Positions 14,042 to 22,796 of a stretch of 64,000 nucleotides of DNA are shown here, piece after piece; the first letter of the stretch is position 1, and each line of letters starts with the position of its first letter. The notes under the pieces are model-generated. The model saw nothing but the letters and a program-made list of their open reading frames with translations. It had not been told where the DNA came from and did not search any database. This DNA is from Akkermansiaceae bacterium (GTDB taxonomy: Bacteria > Verrucomicrobiota > Verrucomicrobiia > Verrucomicrobiales > Akkermansiaceae), in the NCBI GenBank assembly GCA_051251915.1, contig JBPOGF010000004.1:43188-107187 (forward strand), given 5' to 3'. Made by a program: the position numbers and the translations under genes.

Positions 14042-16315
14042 CTAAACTATTTGTAACTCGTAGTCTTTGGTGAGTTGTAGGTGGAGGGTGGTGTCTTTTA
14101 GGGTGGGGTGGGTTACTAGGTGTTGGGAGAGTGAGGTGGTGATGAAGTGGTCTATCTTGCGCTGTAGTGGACGTGCTCCGTATTTGGGGTCGAAGCCTTC
14201 TTTTGCGAGGTGGGTGATGAGGTCTTGGCTGTAGGTGAGGCTGATGTTGCGGTCACGGAGTCCTTCGCGTTGGTTGAGTTCTGTTAGTTCTTTTCTCGCT
14301 ATTTTCTCTATGAGTGGTTGGTCTAGTGCGTTGAAGTAGATGACTTGGTCTAGACGATTGAAGAATTCTGGGCGGAAGAATTTTTTGACTACTGATGTGT
14401 CAACGCTGGTAGATGGGCTATTGGCTTCATTGCCAAATCCGATGTTGTTAGCGAGACCAGCACCTAGGTTAGAGGTCATGATGATGATGGTGCTGTTGAA
14501 GTAGGTGCGGCGTCCGAAGGAGTCTGTTAGGCGCCCTTCGTCGAAGACATTGAGTAGGATGTCGAATACTTCATCGGCAGCTTTTTCAACTTCGTCTAGT
14601 AGTAGTATGGTGAATGGATTTGAGCGGATCTTGCGGATCATTTCTGATGGCTTGCCGCGTAGCTGGGGGTGACCTAGTAGTCTGGTGGCTGCATCGTAGC
14701 CGGCGTATTCGCTCATGTCTAAGCGGATCAAGCGGTCTTTTTCTACTTTTCCTGAGAAGAGCAGATTTCCGAGTGCTCGGACGATAGCTGTCTTTCCTAC
14801 GCCAGTAGGTCCGCAGCAGAGGAAGACACCTAGTGGGCGAGATGGATCATTCATGCCAGCTTTGAAGCGTGAGAGCATGTTGGAGATGACGTTGACTACG
14901 GGTTCTTGACCTAGGACTTGGTTGTTGAGTGTTTGGCGGATTTCTGAGGGCGCTAGGCTTAGCTCGTCATTGAGAAATTCTAGCGGGAGTCCAGTATGCT
15001 TGCTAAAGGTGAGCCAGACTAGATCTGTATCTACTGTGGAGCTGTTAGAGCGCTGGGATTCTTCTTTGAGCCCATCCATGAAATGCATGACCTTGCCGGG
15101 GAAGGAGTCATAGGGTTGGAAGCGTTTAAAGAGTTGGTGGACTATGTCTAGGGCTTCTGGGGCGAAGCTGACTTTGTCTTGCTGGAGTGCTGCGTCTGCG
15201 TAGCGTGCTAGGATTCTTTTGGTTTGTTCTTCAGTGAAGGTTGGGAGTTGGAGCACTTGGAATTGATCGATGAGTCCGGGGAGTAGTCGGTCACAGGCTT
15301 CTAGTTCTTCTGGTGTGGCTTCTACTACAATGCGGAGTTCTTGATTCTGAATGTAGGGGAGCATGAAGGCAGCAATACTGGACTCTGCTGTTTGGCCTCC
15401 TAGTTTGAGCAGCTCTTGGAGGTTTTCTATGAATAGGGTTCCTTGGAAGTTTGCGAGGTCTGCTACGGCATACTCGAAACGTTCTTCCCACTGACCTAGG
15501 TAGCGCATTCCTGAGATGATGCGTCCTGCGTTGGTGGTCCAGAAGAGTTGTTTTTTCTTGCTGTGTTTACTTTTATTCTTCTGTTGTTTGAGCTCTGCAC
15601 GTCTTGCGGCTTCTGTCAAAAGTGATGTTTTTCCACTTCCTGTATTTCCTACGAGAAGGATGCTGTTAGATTCTGCTGAGAGCATGGTTTCTAGCCAGTG
15701 CATTTCATGGTCTCGTTCCCAGGTTCGCTTGGTTTTCTGTGATGTGGTTTTGCTGATGTGGTCGGCAAATTGAGCGAGGCTTTTGACGCAGTCTGTGTCT
15801 TCGTAATGTGAGGTGGATAGTTCTTTGAAGGTGGTGATTATTTCATGGAGTTCAATATGGCTGGGTGGGAGATAGCGGGAGAGTTCTTGGGGGCTTAGAC
15901 CTTGGGCGAAGGATCTTACGTAATGGGTAGCGAGTTCTTCAAATCCTTTTTCATCGTGGTATTCGAAGCTGAGATCCATAGTGGGGATGAAGGCGGTGGG
16001 GAGTCCGCTGTCACGCTCTCCTAGTATGCAGGGGAGGTTGAGCAGGGTGGAGTCTTTGCTAGCATAGGTGCGGCGGTTTTCTTGGTATTCCGCGATGACT
16101 TTTACTTTTAGCTGGGTGAGTCTAGGCTTGAGGAAGTCGCCTTCTGGTAAGAAGTCATTTTTATGGGCGTATTGGAGGTAATCTTTGATTTGCTGTAATG
16201 CTTGTTTCCGTGATTTAGAAACAGCAATTACCTCAGAGTCATCTAGCAGGCATGCGGTGTGCAAGCCATTGTGATCTTGCCAAATAGCGGCTTGGTGTCG
16301 TTCTACTTTAGCCAT
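14042..16315 (-). CDS. ClpA/B-like double AAA+ ATPase (paralogue 3, no C-terminal extension)
   Basis: D1 GNTGSGKT; D2 GPTGVGKT, RLDMSEY, LLLDEVEKA, FRPEFFNRLD, YGARPLQR; NNIGF loop. Confidence 0.9.
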   Translation of the reverse strand: MAKVERHQAAIWQDHNGLHTACLLDDSEVIAVSKSRKQALQQIKDYLQYAHKNDFLPEGDFLKPRLTQLKVKVIAEYQENRRTYASKDSTLLNLPCILGERDSGLPTAFIPTMDLSFEYHDEKGFEELATHYVRSFAQGLSPQELSRYLPPSHIELHEIITTFKELSTSHYEDTDCVKSLAQFADHISKTTSQKTKRTWERDHEMHWLETMLSAESNSILLVGNTGSGKTSLLTEAARRAELKQQKNKSKHSKKKQLFWTTNAGRIISGMRYLGQWEERFEYAVADLANFQGTLFIENLQELLKLGGQTAESSIAAFMLPYIQNQELRIVVEATPEELEACDRLLPGLIDQFQVLQLPTFTEEQTKRILARYADAALQQDKVSFAPEALDIVHQLFKRFQPYDSFPGKVMHFMDGLKEESQRSNSSTVDTDLVWLTFSKHTGLPLEFLNDELSLAPSEIRQTLNNQVLGQEPVVNVISNMLSRFKAGMNDPSRPLGVFLCCGPTGVGKTAIVRALGNLLFSGKVEKDRLIRLDMSEYAGYDAATRLLGHPQLRGKPSEMIRKIRSNPFTILLLDEVEKAADEVFDILLNVFDEGRLTDSFGRRTYFNSTIIIMTSNLGAGLANNIGFGNEANSPSTSVDTSVVKKFFRPEFFNRLDQVIYFNALDQPLIEKIARKELTELNQREGLRDRNISLTYSQDLITHLAKEGFDPKYGARPLQRKIDHFITTSLSQHLVTHPTLKDTTLHLQLTKDYELQIV

Positions 16316-19300
16316 GGTTCGGAAGAAGAAGGTTTGAGATTTCAGTGAGTTCTGGAGCTGTGGGGAGGAGCGGGGTGATGAGGCTCCATAGATTGTAGTT
16401 TCTGTCTGTGATGAGTCCTGTGCGAAGATCTAGGGTGTGGCTGAAAGTTTGCAGGCGATGGATGAATTCACTACGATGTTGCTCAGTGCTTTCTTGGAAT
16501 TGGTAGATGTGCTGTGCTGCCTTTAATTGAATACCGACTAGGTATTTCATGAGTTTTTGCCCAGCGAGTGCTTCGAATTGATAGTGATTGGTTTTCTTTT
16601 TATCGGTCCATTTTCCATCAGGGAAGCTAGTTGTATAGGTTTCTTGATTCCATGTAGGTCCATCTAGAGCGAGGATGACAGTTTCTATATTCAGGTTCTT
16701 TTGTTCTAACAGAAAGTGGATATGGTTGATTTTGTTGATGAGGTTTTCAGCGGAATAGGCGAGGTAGGTTTGGATTTCGCCAGTCTCGGCTAGTTCGTTG
16801 ATCCATTGGCTTGGATTGCTCATCTGGCTGATTTTCTCTAGTGCATTACTTTGCGTTTCTGGGCTGATGCGGACTCTGGTGGAACGGGTTCCAAACCTTG
16901 GTGGGATATCAGTTTTGAAACGCGGGTTGAGCGCTATTTCGTGTTGTGATTGGAGTCTTTGCTGAAGAGTTTTTAGGGAGTTAATTTCTTCAGCTAGCTC
17001 GTAGTAGGGGAGCTTGGATTTGAAGTCGCCGTCTTGTTCACCTAGTAGCTGGAGTCTTTCTTCAGCGCGGTCCATAAAGTCATCACTGCATTCTAAGAGA
17101 GTGAGAGCGTGGTCAGGAGAAATGTCCGAGAAGCCAATGTATTCACGCGTTCTCGCGGTGAATGTCTGGGCTGTGATCTTAGGTGCATTGTTCTGGTCTA
17201 GGCTGACGGTGAGGGTGCTCAAGGCGCTGGGTTTGAACTTCATGAGTGCGTCAGCTAGTGGCTGGACTAGGTAGTTTTCTACTGCTCGGCGGAGTGTTCT
17301 AGCTCCGTATTCTGGGTCGAATCCGTGATCAGTGAGCATTTCATAGACTGGAGGCTCTATCTCTAGTGTGAGCTTGCGCTGGGTGACGCCAAATCGCTTG
17401 AGTGCTTTCTGTGCTAGCCGCTGGACTAGTCCCTGGATGTGGTTGCGGTCTAGGCGGTGGAAGGGGACGATGCGGTCTAGGCGATTGAAAAACTCTGGAC
17501 GGAAAAATTTCTCAGCTGCTTGAGTGTAGATGTGGTCTTGCTGTTCTTGGTTTTGCTCGGAGCTAAAGCCCATGTGGCTAGCGTTTGCTGCTGATCCTAG
17601 GTTGGAGGTGAGAATGATGAGGGTGTTACTAAAGTCTGCAGTCTGTCCAGCAGCGTCTGTTAGGCGAGCCTCGCCTAGGACTTGGAGGAGGAGGTCGAAG
17701 ACGCTGGGGTGGGCTTTTTCTATCTCATCAAATAGGACGACGGTGTATGGCTGACGTTTGATGGCGGAGGTGAGTATACCGTGAGGGCGTGCCTCAGTGC
17801 CTATGAGACGAGCGGCGGCGTCTGCTCCGACGTATTCGTTCATGTCGATCCGGAGTAGACGTTCTTCTGTCTCGAAAACGTAGCTGGCTAGAGCTTTGGC
17901 GCATTCGGTTTTCCCTACGCCTGTGGGTCCTAGAAAGAGTAGGCTAGCGAGTGGGCGACTGGGGTCATTGAGCTGGCTCTTGGTGAGGGTGATGGCATTC
18001 ACCATGGCATCGATAGCGGCTTGTTGTCCTACGATGTGCTGATTGAAATAGAGTATGGGCGTGTCATCTGGGTTGTTGTTAGTTTCGATCATTCGCCATG
18101 AGATTCCTGATTTGGCTTTGAAGTGATCTACTGCATTTTTTTCGGTGATTTCTGTGCTCTGGGAAGCGAGCTGCATGAGTGCATCTGCTCCTTTTCCGGG
18201 GAATGAGCGTGAGCGGACGTAGCGCTGCTGGAGTTGCATGATCTTGGGGATGACGCCGGGGGCGAAGGTGCAGTTTTTCTCAGTCTCTAGCATTTGCATC
18301 ACTCGGATGAGGATGCGCTGGGTCTCATCATCACTAGGTTCACGAATGGGGATGATCTGGAAATAATCGGTGAATCCACGGTCGATCTCTTTGAGCTTTC
18401 TCCAGGCTTCTGGAGTGGCTTCGGCGATGATGCGTGGTGGATTTTTTTCGAGTTGAGCCTTGAGCAGGTTTCCGATGCTAAGGTCACTACTGCTAGATTT
18501 TCCAGCCTGGAAGAGTCCTAGAAGGTCATCGAAGTAGGCTACGTGGTTTTTCTTAGTAATGTGGGTAATGATGGCTAGAAAACGTTCTTCCCACTGACCT
18601 ACATAAGACATCCCTGAGACCATGCGTTGAGGATTGAGCAGCCAGAACTGCTCGTCTAGCTTGTGGCGCTCGTCGTGTCGCTTGGCGATGAGTTCATGAA
18701 TGATGGCGGTCTTGCCTACTTGGCTGGGACCGATGAGGACTACGGGGCGGAGGAGCTGTGTCTGATCAAAGAGTGATGCTATTTCACCGACTAGGGTCTC
18801 TCGCATGACAGCACGTTTGATTTGCTGGGGATAGAGGCGGTTGATGCAGCGTCCTATCCGTTCTAGCTCGGAGGCGCCGTTAAGTTTCTCAGTGCTACCT
18901 AGGCTGGCGAAAAACTGGGAGCCTTGGTTAGGGTCAAGCTTCTGCTGGATGTTGTTTTCAATGTCGATGTAGCTGAGGTTGTAGTTCTGAGCATTGGCTA
19001 TTTCTTCGGGCTGAGCTTTTCCTTCTTCGCGTTCTTTCTTGCGATAGTATTTAGTAAGTATGGTGGTAGCTCGTTCTTGGATCTGGTCACCACGAAGGAG
19101 CTCGAAACTGACTTCTGGTTGCTTGGGGCAGTAGGCTATACGTCTTTCTAGTGCGGAGAAAACCACGAAGAAAAACTTACCTCTGAAGGTTTGTTTCTTA
19201 AGTCGGAGTTCTAGCTTTAGCAGATGCCGGCTTAGCTCTGGGCTGTAGGAGAGAGTGGTGAGCTCGCTGTGGTTTTGCTTTTTTACTAGAGCTGCAATGT

Positions 19301-19460
19301 AGCCGCGGAGGTTCTGAGTAAGACGCTCTGTGGCGCGGTCTTCACGGAGGTCACTGGCGGTGATCTCTTGATTGAAAATAGGGGAGACTGAATAGTAGGG
19401 ATCTGCGTCACCGTCTATGATTTTCTCTATTAGGATGGGTATGGAAAGTTGAGTCAGCAT
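16308..19460 (-). CDS. ClpA/B-like double AAA+ ATPase (paralogue 2, C-terminal extension of about 290 aa)
   Basis: D1 GPSQVGKT; D2 GPTGVGKT, RIDMNEY, VLFDEIEKAH, FRPEFFNRLD, YGARTLRR; HMGF loop; C-terminal TLDLRTG. Confidence 0.9.
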   Translation of the reverse strand: MLTQLSIPILIEKIIDGDADPYYSVSPIFNQEITASDLREDRATERLTQNLRGYIAALVKKQNHSELTTLSYSPELSRHLLKLELRLKKQTFRGKFFFVVFSALERRIAYCPKQPEVSFELLRGDQIQERATTILTKYYRKKEREEGKAQPEEIANAQNYNLSYIDIENNIQQKLDPNQGSQFFASLGSTEKLNGASELERIGRCINRLYPQQIKRAVMRETLVGEIASLFDQTQLLRPVVLIGPSQVGKTAIIHELIAKRHDERHKLDEQFWLLNPQRMVSGMSYVGQWEERFLAIITHITKKNHVAYFDDLLGLFQAGKSSSSDLSIGNLLKAQLEKNPPRIIAEATPEAWRKLKEIDRGFTDYFQIIPIREPSDDETQRILIRVMQMLETEKNCTFAPGVIPKIMQLQQRYVRSRSFPGKGADALMQLASQSTEITEKNAVDHFKAKSGISWRMIETNNNPDDTPILYFNQHIVGQQAAIDAMVNAITLTKSQLNDPSRPLASLLFLGPTGVGKTECAKALASYVFETEERLLRIDMNEYVGADAAARLIGTEARPHGILTSAIKRQPYTVVLFDEIEKAHPSVFDLLLQVLGEARLTDAAGQTADFSNTLIILTSNLGSAANASHMGFSSEQNQEQQDHIYTQAAEKFFRPEFFNRLDRIVPFHRLDRNHIQGLVQRLAQKALKRFGVTQRKLTLEIEPPVYEMLTDHGFDPEYGARTLRRAVENYLVQPLADALMKFKPSALSTLTVSLDQNNAPKITAQTFTARTREYIGFSDISPDHALTLLECSDDFMDRAEERLQLLGEQDGDFKSKLPYYELAEEINSLKTLQQRLQSQHEIALNPRFKTDIPPRFGTRSTRVRISPETQSNALEKISQMSNPSQWINELAETGEIQTYLAYSAENLINKINHIHFLLEQKNLNIETVILALDGPTWNQETYTTSFPDGKWTDKKKTNHYQFEALAGQKLMKYLVGIQLKAAQHIYQFQESTEQHRSEFIHRLQTFSHTLDLRTGLITDRNYNLWSLITPLLPTAPELTEISNLLLPNHG

Positions 19461-19463
19461 CGG

Positions 19464-22400
19464 TTAATCGAGCATGTTGTTAGTTTCCTTAAGCAGTGTG
19501 TCGTTGAGGAGTTTATCCAGTGTGGATATGGAGAAGGGGAGGATTCCTTTTTCTTCTAACCATGTATCACGGTAGCTGCCCTCGAAGAAAAATTCTCTAC
19601 GAACGGCTATTTTCTTAAGATCTAGTTTAGCCTCCAGTTCTTCTACAGGAATGCGGAATTTCTTGAGCGAGCCACTGTGGGTGCTGATGTAGCAACGTTG
19701 TTTGTCTTTGTCTTCTGTATGGTAAACGTGGAGTCCGTGTTCATTGCGAAGTAGGAGTTCTGCTTCTGTGTGCTGGACGTGGAGAGCTATTCCTTTGAGG
19801 GGTTTGAGCTTTCGAGTGCCGACTTTATCACTGAGCATTTCTGCAAATTCTTCTAGGCTTACAATTTCCGGGGTGATGAATTCATGTTCGTTGCCATCTT
19901 CATCTAGGTCTTTTACTTTGAGTTCTTTGGTAGGTTTTCTGTAGATGAGTCCTAGCTTACATTTGAAATTTTTACCTGTTAGCAGTGTGGTGTATGTTTG
20001 CTGTAACTTGGTCATCCACTCGAGTGAATCTACTTGCATGTAGAGGATGATTTCATCATCGAGATTGGAATAGACACTGTAGATCTCTGTGATGAGACGG
20101 AGTGCGTCATGTCTGGTAAATGGGCTGTGTTTCTGCTGGGCGTCCAGATCAGAGTTTTGGAAGGATTTTACGAGTAAGTCTTCTTCCCATTGGGTTGTTT
20201 TAGTGAGGGCTTGAGTTACTTCGTTGAGGCTTGTGGTGAGTGATTCCTTGCGAGGGGTGTTCTCTGGATCAAATTCTGTGAAGACGCTGTCTAGTGATTG
20301 CTTCCTACGCTTTTGTTGTTTGAGCTTTTTAGCCTTTAGTTGATTCATCCTGCGTTCGAGTCTAGCTAGCTCGCTTTTTAGCTCACGTAGCATGGAGCTG
20401 TGGTTTAGCTTGTAGATGAGACGTCTTACTTTAGCGGCTTCGTTTAGTTGTGGATAGCTGTAGGTTTTTTTACTGGAGTGGTGAGGTTCGTATGAGACTA
20501 GCGCTTGAGCTTGGTTCTGTTCATCAGCTGAGACGTTGATGGTGCCATTTTGCTTGGTGTTGTTGATGATGAATTCAGCAACGGGGAGAAGAATGTGTGT
20601 CTCGATAGCTCGCTTGAGTGGACGTGCGCCGTAGCGGGGGTCGTGGCTGTTACGGATGACTTGGTCTAGATATTCAGGGTCTACTTGGATGTCTAGACCT
20701 TGGTGGTGGAGACCATCTCGCTTGGATGCTAGCTGGAGCTCGCGCTGGGCTATTTTTCTAACGGAATCTAGGCTGAGAGCCTGGAAGGGGACGATGCGGT
20801 CGATGCGATTGAAGAACTCTGGGCGGACGCGTTCTTTGACAGCATCAATGAAGTGTTGCTCAGCGAGGACTGAGTCTTCGAGATCATTGGCTAGGAATCC
20901 CATGTTAGAATTTCCAAAGGTGCTGGCTCCTAGGTTGGAGGTCATGATGATGACGGCATTGCTGAAGTCTGCTAAGCGTCCTGCTCCATCAGTCAGACGA
21001 CCTTCGCCTAGGACTTGGAGGAAGAGGTCATAGACTTCTGGTGCTGCTTTCTCAAATTCATCTAGGAGGATGACGGAGAAGGGTTGGTCACGGACGGTGG
21101 CGGTGAGGATGCCTTCGCCCTGGGAAAAGCTATCGCTCACTAGGCGCTGGGCTGAGTGTGGTGAGCTGTATTCGCTCATGTCGAAACGGACAATGCGCTC
21201 CTTTGACCCGTAGAGGAATTCTGCTAGGGACTTGGCTAGTTCGGTTTTGCCTACTCCAGTAGGTCCTATGAACATGAATGTAGCGAGGGGTTTCTTGGGT
21301 CTCGTGAGTCTGGTTTTGACCGTAGCGAGCATCTTGGTGACTACTTCTATGCCGGCGTCTTGAGCCATCACTCGTTGGGTAAACCATTCAGTGATTTCGG
21401 AGGGGGTGAAAATGATATCATCATCCAGAATGAGTTTGGGGAGACCGGTCTCCTTGGAGAAAACTTCTACGATGTCAGAGCGCGATATTTTCCTGTCGGA
21501 ATGTTGTTTGATGAGGCTTTCTAAGAATTGGCAGGGCTTCCCGGGGTAGGCTGAGTAGCTCATGTAGCGGCGGTGAAGCGCGTCAATGTTGTGAATCAGG
21601 TCATGCTGTTCCTCTGAGCTGTGTTTGCTGTTAGAGGCATCTGTTAGATATTGATTTCCTACTTTAAGCAGGATGTTTAGAGCTTGGTCAGGTGTTGGCT
21701 CAGCGATGGTGACGCGGTTAAATGCATCGAGAATTTTTGGGTCGTGAGCTTCCAGTGCGCTGAGTTGTTCCTCAGTGCATTCAGCAATTACGATGAGGTC
21801 TCCACGCATCATGTAGGGGCGGAGGTAGCTGGCGATGCTTTCTGAACTGCTGGAGGATTGACCTACTTGCATGAGCTCGAAGAGATTGCCAATGAAGAGG
21901 ATACTTTTCTCTTCTGCGAGTTCTGAGACCATGTCGTCGCAACGTTTCTGCCACATGCCGAATCCTGTTTGTCCCGCTACGATTTGGGATCCGCTAGATT
22001 TCCAGAGTTTAGGAAGGTGTTTTGATTCTGAACGTAGCATTTCTTCTACGATAGCAGTTTTTCCTACTCCGCTAGGTCCTACGAGAAGTGCGCTGAAGGG
22101 ATTTTTTCCTGTGAGGCATTCTAGTAGGTTTGTGACCTCAGTGGTGCGCTCATAAGCTTGGCGCATATCACCAGTATTCATTTGGCAGGCGACTTCTTTT
22201 AGTATAGTTTTCTGATCTGTTTGATCATCGTAGTTCACCTTGTAGTATTCTAGAGCTGTGTAAGGTCTGGGCTTCCAGGGGGTGAGTTCTACTTCTAGAT
22301 CATCTGCTTTTGTGCGCTGGATGAGGGCCATTTCTAGGAGTGACTTGGAGATAGCTCGGCGTTTTACAGCGAAGAGAATTTCCGATTCTATTTTCTCTAA

Positions 22401-22796
22401 CAGCTTGTCATGATTCTGGATGATGACCTCGATCTTTAGAGCGGGGATGTAGACGATGATGTCATTGTTCTCTTGTTCCCATTGAAGATAGGGAAGGTGG
22501 AGAGTGACTGGCTTCTTGAAGCCAATCTGAGCAGATTTAGCAGGTTCGACGACGACGTCGATCGATTTAATTTTGTATTCTGTAGGGACAGATCGCTCGT
22601 GGAAAACTTGGTTGTTTTTCTTTTTAAGCAGCTCGGCAGCAAGTGATTTGAGCTGCTTCTGGACCTTATCAGTTTTGTGACCAAAGGTGCTGAGCTCTGG
22701 GTAGAATAGTAATTCTGACAGCTCTTGGTTTACTCCATTGATAGAACTCTCCAAGGGCTGCTTGATGGACAACACTTCTAGATGGAGATCCTGCAT
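19464..22796 (-). CDS. ClpA/B-like double AAA+ ATPase (paralogue 1) with release-factor-like C-terminal region
   Basis: D1 GPSGVGKT; D2 GPTGVGKT, RFDMSEY, ILLDEFEKA, RPEFFNRID, YGARPLKR; NMGF loop. C-terminal EWMTKLQQTY and GIALHV..AELLLRNEHGLH resemble the PCRF domain. Confidence 0.9.
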   Translation of the reverse strand: MQDLHLEVLSIKQPLESSINGVNQELSELLFYPELSTFGHKTDKVQKQLKSLAAELLKKKNNQVFHERSVPTEYKIKSIDVVVEPAKSAQIGFKKPVTLHLPYLQWEQENNDIIVYIPALKIEVIIQNHDKLLEKIESEILFAVKRRAISKSLLEMALIQRTKADDLEVELTPWKPRPYTALEYYKVNYDDQTDQKTILKEVACQMNTGDMRQAYERTTEVTNLLECLTGKNPFSALLVGPSGVGKTAIVEEMLRSESKHLPKLWKSSGSQIVAGQTGFGMWQKRCDDMVSELAEEKSILFIGNLFELMQVGQSSSSSESIASYLRPYMMRGDLIVIAECTEEQLSALEAHDPKILDAFNRVTIAEPTPDQALNILLKVGNQYLTDASNSKHSSEEQHDLIHNIDALHRRYMSYSAYPGKPCQFLESLIKQHSDRKISRSDIVEVFSKETGLPKLILDDDIIFTPSEITEWFTQRVMAQDAGIEVVTKMLATVKTRLTRPKKPLATFMFIGPTGVGKTELAKSLAEFLYGSKERIVRFDMSEYSSPHSAQRLVSDSFSQGEGILTATVRDQPFSVILLDEFEKAAPEVYDLFLQVLGEGRLTDGAGRLADFSNAVIIMTSNLGASTFGNSNMGFLANDLEDSVLAEQHFIDAVKERVRPEFFNRIDRIVPFQALSLDSVRKIAQRELQLASKRDGLHHQGLDIQVDPEYLDQVIRNSHDPRYGARPLKRAIETHILLPVAEFIINNTKQNGTINVSADEQNQAQALVSYEPHHSSKKTYSYPQLNEAAKVRRLIYKLNHSSMLRELKSELARLERRMNQLKAKKLKQQKRRKQSLDSVFTEFDPENTPRKESLTTSLNEVTQALTKTTQWEEDLLVKSFQNSDLDAQQKHSPFTRHDALRLITEIYSVYSNLDDEIILYMQVDSLEWMTKLQQTYTTLLTGKNFKCKLGLIYRKPTKELKVKDLDEDGNEHEFITPEIVSLEEFAEMLSDKVGTRKLKPLKGIALHVQHTEAELLLRNEHGLHVYHTEDKDKQRCYISTHSGSLKKFRIPVEELEAKLDLKKIAVRREFFFEGSYRDTWLEEKGILPFSISTLDKLLNDTLLKETNNMLD

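What the first reader, a model, noticed from the sequence alone, without database searches (positions are those of the whole stretch)
14042..21300. D2 GYVG pore loop lost but IGF/MGF ClpP-docking loop kept in all three paralogues
Seen: where ClpA/B have RLVGAPPGYVGY, the proteins have RLVSDSFSQGEG, RLIGTEARPHG and RLLGHPQLRG (shorter, no pore Tyr). After TSNLG all three have NMGF, HMGF or NIGF. D1 pore loops keep an aromatic residue (TGFG, SYVG, RYLG). Known: the GYVG Tyr drives translocation, and (I/L/M/V)G(F/L) loops bind ClpP. Inference: they may couple to ClpP but translocate substrate in a non-standard way, or act as remodellers or scaffolds.
Basis: partly seen in the sequence, partly recalled or inferred. 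Interest (0 to 1): 0.62.

Follow-up and report, generated by a model that had tools for sequence, protein, structure and literature searches.

The report
Three-gene Clp machine, tip-less motor pore
Three neighbouring genes encode an undescribed branch of the Clp/Hsp100 protein-unfolding ATPases that has lost the usual substrate-pulling tyrosine in its motor ring yet strictly keeps the small loop used to dock onto the ClpP protease, so it most likely feeds already-unfolded chains, perhaps from ribosomes, into ClpP.

Summary
The minus-strand ORFs W1 (19464-22796), W2 (16308-19460) and W3 (14042-16315) are two-ring Clp/Hsp100 ATPases.

- **D2 pore-1 loop.** None of 213 homologues has GYVG, and the loop is 5 residues shorter than in ClpC and ClpB.
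- **Docking loop.** The hydrophobic-Gly-Phe/Leu tripeptide aligns with the ClpP-docking loop of ClpC. Its Gly is kept in 212 of 213 members and Phe/Leu/Tyr in 212 of 213, inside an otherwise hypervariable loop that the structure model predicts to be flexible.
- **D1 ring.** It keeps its pore tyrosine but has no canonical Walker B and no arginine fingers. D2 keeps every catalytic motif.
- **Gene organisation.** The three genes are ancient paralogues. They occur together in the same order in Verrucomicrobiota and Planctomycetota, and no other neighbour is conserved. ClpP is encoded elsewhere in the genome.
- **Tails.** W1 and W2 end in a release-factor-like domain without GGQ.

Best reading (about 0.55): a probably heteromeric, ClpP-coupled translocase that grips with D1, is driven by D2, and has weak unfolding power. 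This is the natural counterpart of the engineered ClpA D2 pore-loop mutant. No ClpP binding was shown. I found no paper on the family. I rate it a new variant of a known kind, interest 0.68.

The parts
19464..22796 (-). W1, 1110 aa. Domains: HicB-like N-domain, D1, D2, D2-small, release-factor-like tail.
   Evidence: ORF. Pfam AAA_2 150.8 bits and ClpB_D2-small 54.1 bits. Belongs to orthologue class W1, 54 members.
16308..19460 (-). W2, 1050 aa. Same architecture as W1, with a more eroded release-factor-like tail.
   Evidence: A 3-nt spacer separates it from the W1 stop codon.
14042..16315 (-). W3, 757 aa. N-domain, D1 and D2, ending right after D2-small with no tail.
   Evidence: Its start overlaps the W2 stop by 8 nt. 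AF2 model pLDDT 86.4. Best Foldseek matches are ClpC chains in ClpC-ClpP complexes.
21102..21146 (-). W1 D2 pore-1 loop, RLVSDSFSQGEGILT. Shortened, no Tyr, one Phe.
17769..17810 (-). W2 D2 pore-1 loop, RLIGTEARPHGILT. Shortened, no aromatic residue. The class consensus is GTFxQPEG.
14636..14683 (-). W3 D2 pore-1 loop, RLLGHPQLRGKPSEMI. No aromatic residue.
   Evidence: In the AF2 model it is a short coil (residues 548-557) between two helices.
20895..20903 (-). W1 P-loop tripeptide MGF, the candidate ClpP-docking motif.
17565..17576 (-). W2 P-loop, HMGF.
14435..14446 (-). W3 P-loop, NIGF.
   Evidence: Aligned on S. aureus ClpC FAGF. Lies in the segment 621-634 with pLDDT below 50.
21948..21977 (-). 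W1 D1 pore-1 loop, AGQTGFGMWQ. The aromatic residue is shifted by one position.
   Evidence: (Phe 39 and Tyr 10 of 54).
18588..18617 (-). W2 D1 pore-1 loop, SGMSYVGQWE. Tyr kept.
   Evidence: (Tyr 105 and Phe 14 of 123).
15485..15514 (-). W3 D1 pore-1 loop, SGMRYLGQWE. Tyr kept.
   Evidence: (Tyr 33 and Phe 3 of 36).
21882..21899 (-). W1 D1 Walker B position, LFIGNL, where the canonical sequence is FIDELH. The equivalents are W2 AYFDDL at 18522-18539 and W3 LFIENL at 15419-15436.
19467..20525 (-). W1 C-terminal tail, residues 758-1110. Related to class-I release factors (domains 1, 2 and 4), with no GGQ domain.
   Evidence: An HMM of 51 tails hits only W1 itself, RF2 (5.8e-11) and RF1 (8.7e-7) among 10,210 ORFs of this genome. 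AF2 pLDDT 87.9. The top 37 Foldseek matches are all RF1, RF2 or mtRF1. No GGQ.
16311..17183 (-). W2 C-terminal tail, homologous to the W1 tail.
   Evidence: hhalign against W1 tails gives 95.9% probability, E 6e-9. The HMM hits RF2 only at E 0.01.
15740..16315 (-). W3 N-terminal domain of about 190 aa. The homologous domains are W1 22167-22796 and W2 18822-19460.
   Evidence: hhalign between the three classes gives 97, 97 and 85.5%. The model shows beta-beta-beta-alpha, then a long hairpin, then beta-beta-alpha. The relative P0281 has sub-threshold UPF0150 and HicB-like hits.

Best explanation
W1, W2 and W3 belong to an undescribed clade of two-ring Clp/Hsp100 ATPases that works as a three-gene unit. 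The most likely model has five parts.

1. The three proteins assemble into one ring, probably a mixed hexamer (inferred).
2. D1 binds nucleotide but does not hydrolyse it in the canonical way. It supplies the conserved aromatic pore-1 loops that capture and hold the polypeptide. The motifs are shown; the role is inferred.
3. D2 is the only canonical motor. The tip of its pore-1 loop (PPGYV) has been deleted, so the ring should pull weakly on folded domains. The deletion is shown; the consequence is inferred from ClpA mutants.
4. Each subunit docks on the housekeeping ClpP, encoded elsewhere, through its flexible Phi-G-F loop, and the substrate is degraded. The motif, its position and its conservation are shown; binding is inferred.
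5. The machine is therefore a ClpP-feeding translocase for chains that are already unfolded, not a strong unfoldase. The GGQ-less release-factor-like tails of W1 and W2 suggest that its clients are found at the ribosome or on the termination machinery (speculative).
For: **Membership and fold**
- AAA_2 and ClpB_D2-small hits are strong.
- The best PDB sequence match is ClpC.
- The best Foldseek matches are ClpC chains in ClpC-ClpP complexes.

**D2 is catalytically intact**
- Walker A, Walker B, sensor 1, the Arg finger and sensor 2 are invariant in 213 sequences.

**D1 is not canonical**
- Walker B is G-N in W1, D-D in W2 and E-N in W3. The Arg fingers are replaced. Walker A is kept.

**Pore loops**
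- GYVG is found in 0 of 213 members, and the loop is 5 residues shorter than in ClpC and ClpB.
- The D1 Tyr or Phe is conserved in all three classes.

**Docking loop**
- Gly is kept in 212 of 213 members, followed by Phe, Leu or Tyr in 212 of 213.
- It sits 6-8 residues after TSNLG and aligns with the ClpC AGF/LGF motif.
- It is disordered in the model.
- The divergent members P0281, P0282 and P0286 carry VGL or IGL.
- In S. aureus ClpC this motif docks into the ClpP H-site, and the G672D/F673D mutant loses ClpP (PMC12521514).

**Partner protease**
- This genome has one canonical ClpP plus ClpX, ClpC and ClpB.
- ClpP is present in 28 of 29 other triad genomes.
- No peptidase or other gene is conserved next to the triad in 16 loci.

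**The three genes act as a unit**
- Orthologues match one to one and keep the same order in Verrucomicrobiota and Planctomycetota.
- The genes are separated by a 3-nt gap and an 8-nt overlap.

**Experimental precedent**
- ClpA with all six D2 pore tyrosines mutated still degrades unfolded titin-ssrA with ClpP, at a higher Vmax, but fails on folded substrates. The D1 tyrosines are needed for engagement. D2 can drive degradation when D1 hydrolysis is off (PMC8666677).
Against:
- ClpP is almost universal in bacteria, so its co-occurrence with the triad tests nothing.
- The combination of a non-hydrolysing D1 and a Tyr-less D2 has not been tested in any model Clp protein. D1 loops in a ring that does not hydrolyse ATP may not move.
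- An invariant Glu two residues before the sensor-1 Thr (AExT) might restore D1 hydrolysis, which would change the division of labour.
- 99 of 123 W2 orthologues, and the window's W1, keep a Phe or Trp in the short D2 loop. This residue might still grip substrate.
- The tails hang from the ClpP-proximal D2 end. It is unclear how a ribosome-bound tail would present a chain to the D1 entrance.
- The mixed-hexamer idea rests only on co-occurrence and gene coupling.
Confidence: 0.55

Rival explanations
1. A ClpP-independent remodeller or disassembly machine. The ring uses D2 hydrolysis to remodel a client, for example a ribosome or termination complex reached through the release-factor-like tails. 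The Phi-GF loop binds some partner other than ClpP, or another part of the complex.
For: - The tip of the D2 pore-1 loop is deleted, which fits poorly with processive threading.
- D1 lacks canonical hydrolysis residues.
- The tails are release-factor-like, that is, domains that bind ribosomes.
- ClpP is never encoded next to the triad.
Against: - In every characterised Hsp100 or ClpX, a Phi-G-F/L loop at this position is the ClpP-docking element (PMC12521514). ClpB-type remodellers lack it: 71 of 81 in the comparison set.
- The loop is predicted to be free and flexible, not packed.
- D1 pore tyrosines are conserved, as expected for threading.
Confidence: 0.2
2. An ordinary processive ClpP unfoldase. 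A substitute aromatic residue in the short D2 loop (Phe in the GTF of W2-type subunits, Phe in the SDSF of the window's W1) does the job of the GYVG Tyr, so nothing is mechanistically unusual.
For: - 99 of 123 W2 orthologues and 20 of 54 W1 orthologues carry Phe or Trp in the loop.
- Where W2 lacks it, as in the window's lineage, W1 usually has Phe.
- The W2 loop is well conserved as G-T-F-x-Q-P-E-G.
Against: - The loop is 5 residues shorter, and the motif is not aromatic-hydrophobic-Gly.
- By alignment the Phe may correspond to the second, non-pore Tyr of GYVGY.
- W3 has an aromatic residue in only 5 of 36 members.
Confidence: 0.15
3. An anti-phage or conflict module. The triad would belong to an accessory island (Uma2, three Clp genes, Fic) and act as a defence ATPase system.
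For: - PADLOC hits to DolB and PDC-M37B at about 1e-21 to 1e-31. The flanking Fic and Uma2 genes hit SoFic and PDC-S03.
- Distribution is patchy. The triad is absent from three congeneric genomes and from every sampled genome of the same family.
Against: - The PADLOC hits cover only the generic AAA_2 module and are far weaker than the ClpB and ClpA models (1e-88 to 1e-107).
- In 16 loci nothing but the triad is conserved, and Fic and Uma2 are not found beside it elsewhere.
- There is no effector domain such as a nuclease or toxin.
Confidence: 0.07

Closest known systems
ClpC / ClpC1 (class I Hsp100 partner of ClpP)
   Same: - Two AAA+ modules plus a D2-small domain.
- Best sequence and fold matches.
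- A Phi-GF P-loop after sensor 1 at the same aligned position.
- All D2 catalytic motifs.
   Different: - No Clp_N domain and no M-domain; a different N-domain.
- D1 Walker B and Arg fingers are lost.
- The tip of the D2 GYVG loop is deleted.
- A 350-aa release-factor-like tail on two of the three paralogues.
- Scores far below the NCBIfam cut-offs (ClpA model 297-337 bits against a cut-off of 993).
- A separate clade in the D2 tree.
E. coli ClpA, in particular the engineered D2-6A pore-loop variant (PMC8666677)
   Same: - D1 tyrosines present, D2 tyrosines absent, ClpP-docking loop present.
- That variant degrades unfolded ssrA-tagged substrate with ClpP but not folded substrates.
- No M-domain in either.
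   Different: - ClpA D1 still hydrolyses ATP.
- ClpA is a homohexamer with a Clp_N domain and the ClpS adaptor.
- Here the state is natural, ancient and family-wide.
Pex1/Pex6 and other heteromeric two-ring AAA+ machines with an inactive D1
   Same: Paralogous subunits that are always found together, a degenerate D1 tier and an active D2 tier.
   Different: - Eukaryotic, two paralogues, no peptidase partner, and D2 carries the aromatic pore loops.
- Heteromer formation is not shown here.
Class-I release factors RF1 and RF2 (tails only). Functional analogy: Dom34/Pelota and Vms1-Cdc48.
   Same: - The W1 tail is homologous to RF domains 1, 2 and 4.
- PCRF scores above the Pfam cut-off in relatives.
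- Like Dom34, it lacks the catalytic glutamine motif.
- Like Vms1-Cdc48, it links a release-factor-type module to a two-ring AAA+ ATPase. For Dom34 and Vms1 see PMC6514570.
   Different: - No GGQ domain and no PxT/SPF motif at the homologous site.
- It is fused to the ATPase.
- Ribosome binding is untested.
- Vms1 and Dom34 have the unrelated archaeo-eukaryotic RF fold.

Membership tests
Clp/Hsp100 class I (two-ring) ATPases | Two tandem AAA+ modules, the second of AAA_2 type, followed by a ClpB_D2-small domain. | tested here: met
   AAA_2 133-159 bits and D2-small 52-62 bits. D1 aligns to ClpC D1. Foldseek against ClpC, ClpB and ClpA gives E of 1e-43 to 1e-36.
Clp/Hsp100 class I (two-ring) ATPases | Clp_N (double Clp repeat) N-terminal domain. 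| tested here: not met
   No PF02861 hit in W1, W2 or W3, whereas the canonical hits have it. The N-domain has a different fold pattern.
Clp/Hsp100 class I (two-ring) ATPases | Aromatic GYVG-type pore-1 loop in D2. | tested here: not met
   0 of 213 members have it, and the loop is 5 residues shorter.
Clp/Hsp100 class I (two-ring) ATPases | Canonical D1 Walker B (hhhhDE) and D1 arginine fingers. | tested here: not met
   Walker B is G-N, D-D or E-N. The ERRFQ motif reads LDAF, ADLF or VDxF.
ClpP-coupled unfoldases (ClpA, ClpC, ClpE, ClpX) | A flexible loop after sensor 1 carrying the Phi-G-F/L tripeptide. | tested here: met
   The own-genome ClpC (LGF) and ClpX (LGF) serve as references.
ClpP-coupled unfoldases (ClpA, ClpC, ClpE, ClpX) | Physical binding to ClpP and activation of it. 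| not testable with these tools
   Only presence could be checked. ClpP is in this genome and in 28 of 29 other triad genomes.
ClpA, ClpB or ClpC equivalogs (NCBIfam) | Score above the curated equivalog cut-off. | tested here: not met
   ClpB model 305-360 bits against a cut-off of 1232. ClpA model 297-337 bits against 993.
ClpB/Hsp104 disaggregases | A long coiled-coil M-domain and no ClpP loop. | tested here: not met
   The W3 model has only short helices between D1 and D2. The P-loop is present.
Class-I peptide chain release factors (tails of W1 and W2) | PCRF-type domains 1 and 2. | tested here: met
   The tail HMM hits RF2 at 5.8e-11 and RF1 at 8.7e-7. PCRF scores 30-66 bits in relatives. 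The Foldseek top hits are RF1 and RF2. Pfam does not score the window's own tails.
Class-I peptide chain release factors (tails of W1 and W2) | The GGQ peptidyl-hydrolase domain and the PxT/SPF codon-reading motif. | tested here: not met
   The alignment skips RF domain 3. There is no GGQ. The single SPF in W1 is not at the homologous site and occurs in 1 of 51 tails.
PADLOC defence ATPases (DolB, PDC-M37B) | A full-length match together with the system's partner genes. | tested here: not met
   The hits cover only the AAA_2 core. No conserved partner genes were found in 16 loci.

The most novel reading that the evidence does not exclude
The triad is a ribosome-directed, ClpP-coupled extraction machine. 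The GGQ-less release-factor-like tails of W1 and W2 would occupy the A site or factor-binding site of stalled or terminating ribosomes. The ring would then thread the incomplete nascent chain, or a trapped termination or ribosomal protein, into ClpP. This would be a bacterial counterpart of Dom34- or Vms1-Cdc48-type quality control that works beside tmRNA.
Probability: 0.2. Interest if true: 0.9.

Novelty: new variant of a known kind. Interest (0 to 1): 0.68.

Why it matters
Textbook Clp/Hsp100 machines pull substrates with the GYVG tyrosines of their main motor ring. This is a natural, ancient family of some hundreds of sequence clusters in which that element is deleted, while the ClpP-docking loop and the D1 tyrosines are under strong constraint.

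The family offers a natural test of the division of labour between rings that so far has been studied only in engineered ClpA. It would also be the first bacterial Clp ring built from three obligate paralogues, if the heteromer is confirmed.

It carries release-factor-derived tails as well. If those tails bind ribosomes, they would point to an unrecognised route from the translation machinery to ClpP in Verrucomicrobiota, Planctomycetota and some Acidobacteriota.

Tried and rejected
- **Pfam on the window's own N- and C-terminal pieces.** Nothing credible even at E up to 10. The domains were identified only through relatives, a purpose-built HMM and structure models.
- **The search for related loci on genome contigs.** It used generic Walker patterns and returned almost only canonical ClpB and ClpC. 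Only L019 was a clear family member.
- **Phylum-wide genome sample.** Only this genome carried the family. The order-level sample was informative. That search scores at most three candidates per genome, so 'three hits' means at least three.
- **Promoter and terminator scan.** Fewer sites than in shuffled sequence, so uninformative.
- **Empty-site test for an insertion between atpC and serS.** Not possible, because the two genes lie on different contigs in the congeneric genomes.
- **Decay or pseudogene reading.** Rejected. The frames are intact, D2 motifs are invariant, and each class is conserved across phyla.
- **Defence reading.** Rejected as the main explanation.
- **Literature.** No paper combines PCRF, AAA+ and Clp. 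The release-factor survey PMC6514570 does not mention Clp fusions. Two further searches found nothing on the family.

Full report
**What is there**

The region holds three co-oriented minus-strand ORFs: W1 (19464-22796, 1110 aa), W2 (16308-19460, 1050 aa) and W3 (14042-16315, 757 aa). A 3-nt spacer separates W1 from W2, and W2 and W3 overlap by 8 nt.

All three have a strong AAA_2 module and a ClpB_D2-small domain, preceded by a weaker first P-loop module. They score 297-360 bits on the NCBIfam ClpA and ClpB models, far below the equivalog cut-offs of 993 and 1232. The best solved relative by sequence is S. aureus ClpC.

An AlphaFold2 model of W3 (pLDDT 86.4) matches ClpC chains from ClpC-ClpP complexes best, then ClpB and ClpA, with E-values of 1e-43 to 1e-36.

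**Check of the observation**

- The PDB alignment puts the W3 D2 loop 'rllghpq.lrg..kps' under ClpC 'rlvgappgyvghddgg', and W3 NIGF under the ClpC FAGF P-loop.
- This genome's own ClpC (RLIGSPPGYVGYEEGG; TSNVG...SLGF) and ClpB (GYVG, no loop) served as in-genome references in a 215-sequence alignment. They give the same correspondence.
- The D1 loops align to ClpC AGTKYRG as AGQTGFG (W1), SGMSYVG (W2) and SGMRYLG (W3).

There are two corrections. W1 keeps a Phe in its short D2 loop. The D1 loop of W1 lies just outside the coordinates given.

**These traits define a family**

Searches with each paralogue returned a few hundred relatives, annotated only as 'AAA family ATPase' or 'ClpC'. They come from Verrucomicrobiales, Planctomycetota (Gemmataceae, Pirellulaceae and others) and some Acidobacteriota.

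By reciprocal phmmer scores, 213 of them fall into three orthologue classes: W1 with 54 members, W2 with 123 and W3 with 36. In a D2 tree the three classes, together with a divergent group, form a clade (support 0.93) apart from ClpB and ClpC.

Column statistics:

| Feature | Result |
|---|---|
| GYVG in D2 | 0 of 213 |
| D2 pore-1 loop length after RLxG | 7 residues, against 12 in ClpC and ClpB |
| Aromatic residue in that loop | W1 20 of 54; W2 99 of 123 (GTF); W3 5 of 36 |
| P-loop Gly | 212 of 213 |
| Residue after the Gly | Phe 183, Leu 25, Tyr 4 |
| Offset of the tripeptide after TSNLG | fixed, 6-8 residues |
| Column entropy at Gly and Phe | 0.04 and 0.69 bits, against 2.7-3.6 bits in the flanks |
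| D2 Walker A and B, sensor 1, Arg finger, sensor 2 | invariant |
| D1 Walker A | kept |
| D1 Walker B | G-N (W1), D-D (W2), E-N (W3) |
| D1 arginine fingers | lost |
| Glu before the D1 sensor-1 Thr | invariant |
| D1 pore aromatic | W2 Tyr 105 and Phe 14; W3 Tyr 33 and Phe 3; W1 Phe 39 and Tyr 10, one position later |

In the comparison set, all 41 ClpC-like proteins whose loop could be parsed have Phi-GF, and 71 of 81 ClpB-like proteins lack it. In the W3 model the IGF lies in a 24-residue coil with pLDDT below 50. Real ClpP-docking loops are likewise flexible (PMC12521514).

**The three genes are one unit**

- A 1.3-Mb contig carries genes of 1097, 1088 and 761 aa that are one-to-one orthologues in the same order, with unrelated neighbours.
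- In a sample of 301 genomes of the order, 30 genomes (14 of 57 genera) have the family. 28 of them have one W3-, one W1- and one W2-type gene, mostly adjacent. That search scores only three candidates per genome.
- In 16 loci from at least 9 genera, the only conserved gene cluster is the triad itself. No peptidase, adaptor or defence gene travels with it.
- The family is absent from three congeneric genomes and from all sampled genomes of the same family. It was found in no other genome of a phylum-wide sample. Its distribution is therefore patchy.
- ClpP is encoded elsewhere. This genome has one canonical copy, next to tig and near clpX. 28 of 29 other triad genomes also have ClpP. Because ClpP is nearly universal, this is consistent with the model but does not test it.

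**Other domains**

A profile of 51 W1 tails was searched against all 10,210 ORFs of this genome. It hits only W1 itself, RF2 (5.8e-11) and RF1 (8.7e-7). The alignment covers RF domains 1, 2 and 4 and skips the GGQ domain.

- Divergent relatives score above the Pfam PCRF cut-off, up to 65.7 bits.
- A model of the W1 tail (pLDDT 87.9) has RF2, RF1 and mtRF1 as its top 37 PDB matches.
- There is no GGQ and no homologous SPF or PxT motif.
- The W2 tail is homologous to the W1 tail (95.9%), but its own link to RF2 is weak.
- W3 has no tail.
- The tail profile finds 863 clusters among 1.84 billion representatives. The full-length ones all carry it at about residue 755 to the end of proteins of roughly 1100 aa.

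The three N-domains are homologous to each other. They may be HicB/UPF0150-like, but the only hits are sub-threshold and in a relative.

**How it most likely works**

In ClpA, D2 is the stronger ATPase and can drive degradation when D1 hydrolysis is off. The D1 pore tyrosines are needed to engage substrate. A variant with all six D2 pore tyrosines mutated still degrades unfolded titin-ssrA with ClpP, at a higher Vmax, but cannot degrade folded substrates (PMC8666677).

The present family has that configuration by nature, and keeps the ClpP-docking tripeptide under strong constraint. I therefore read it as a ClpP-coupled translocase that grips with D1 and is driven by D2. It would be specialised for chains that are already unfolded, and is probably built from all three paralogues.

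What is shown: the motifs, their positions, their conservation and the gene organisation. What is inferred: ClpP binding, ring composition, weak unfolding power and the nature of the clients.

The release-factor-like tails make translation-linked clients an attractive possibility, though still a speculative one. The genome also has a normal tmRNA with the tag ADSNELALAA.

**Rivals**

- A ClpP-independent remodeller, about 0.2.
- An ordinary unfoldase that uses the substitute Phe of the short D2 loop, about 0.15.
- A defence module, about 0.07. Its PADLOC hits cover only the generic AAA_2 core, and its neighbours are not conserved.

**Novelty**

Five literature searches and the release-factor survey PMC6514570 turned up no description of this family. 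It is a new variant within the Clp/Hsp100 kind.

Noticed in passing
window 19467-20525 (W1) and 16311-17183 (W2): The C-terminal tails are derived from class-I release factors (domains 1, 2 and 4) and lack the GGQ domain. W3 has no tail. In 1.84 billion representative proteins this tail occurs only at the end of Clp-like proteins of about 1100 aa.
   Followed up: yes
window 21774-21788, 18414-18428, 15314-15328: An invariant Glu sits two residues before the D1 sensor-1 Thr (AExT) in all three classes: 53 of 54, 123 of 123 and 36 of 36. It might be a relocated catalytic residue, so D1 could be rewired and not dead.
   Followed up: partly
window 22167-22796, 18822-19460, 15740-16315: The three N-terminal domains of about 200 aa are homologous to each other. 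They start beta-beta-beta-alpha. The only family hints are sub-threshold UPF0150 and HicB-like hits in a distant relative.
   Followed up: partly
L015:15638-19033: In the closest metagenomic relative the gene order is W2-W3-W1, and W1 is split into ORFs of 293 and 832 aa. This could be a frameshift, an assembly error or a real split.
   Followed up: no
own genome C3:120941-121555 (L009) and C34:147895-148422 (L002): The genome also has a second ClpX-like ATPase (open frame of about 569 aa, not trimmed to a start codon) with its own IGF loop. It further has a 423-aa protein with a hydrophobic N-terminus (possible signal peptide) and a weak ClpP-family domain.
   Followed up: no
whole window: GC skew is strongly and persistently positive (0.15-0.46) and AT skew negative on the plus strand wherever genes lie on the minus strand. 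The skew is near zero at 6-12 kb, where the atp genes are on the plus strand. The coding strands are thus markedly rich in C and A.
   Followed up: no
own genus and family (handles G544, G565, G574 and family f1): The triad is missing from three congeneric genomes and from every sampled genome of the same family, but common in two other families of the order. This suggests gain by transfer, or repeated loss.
   Followed up: partly
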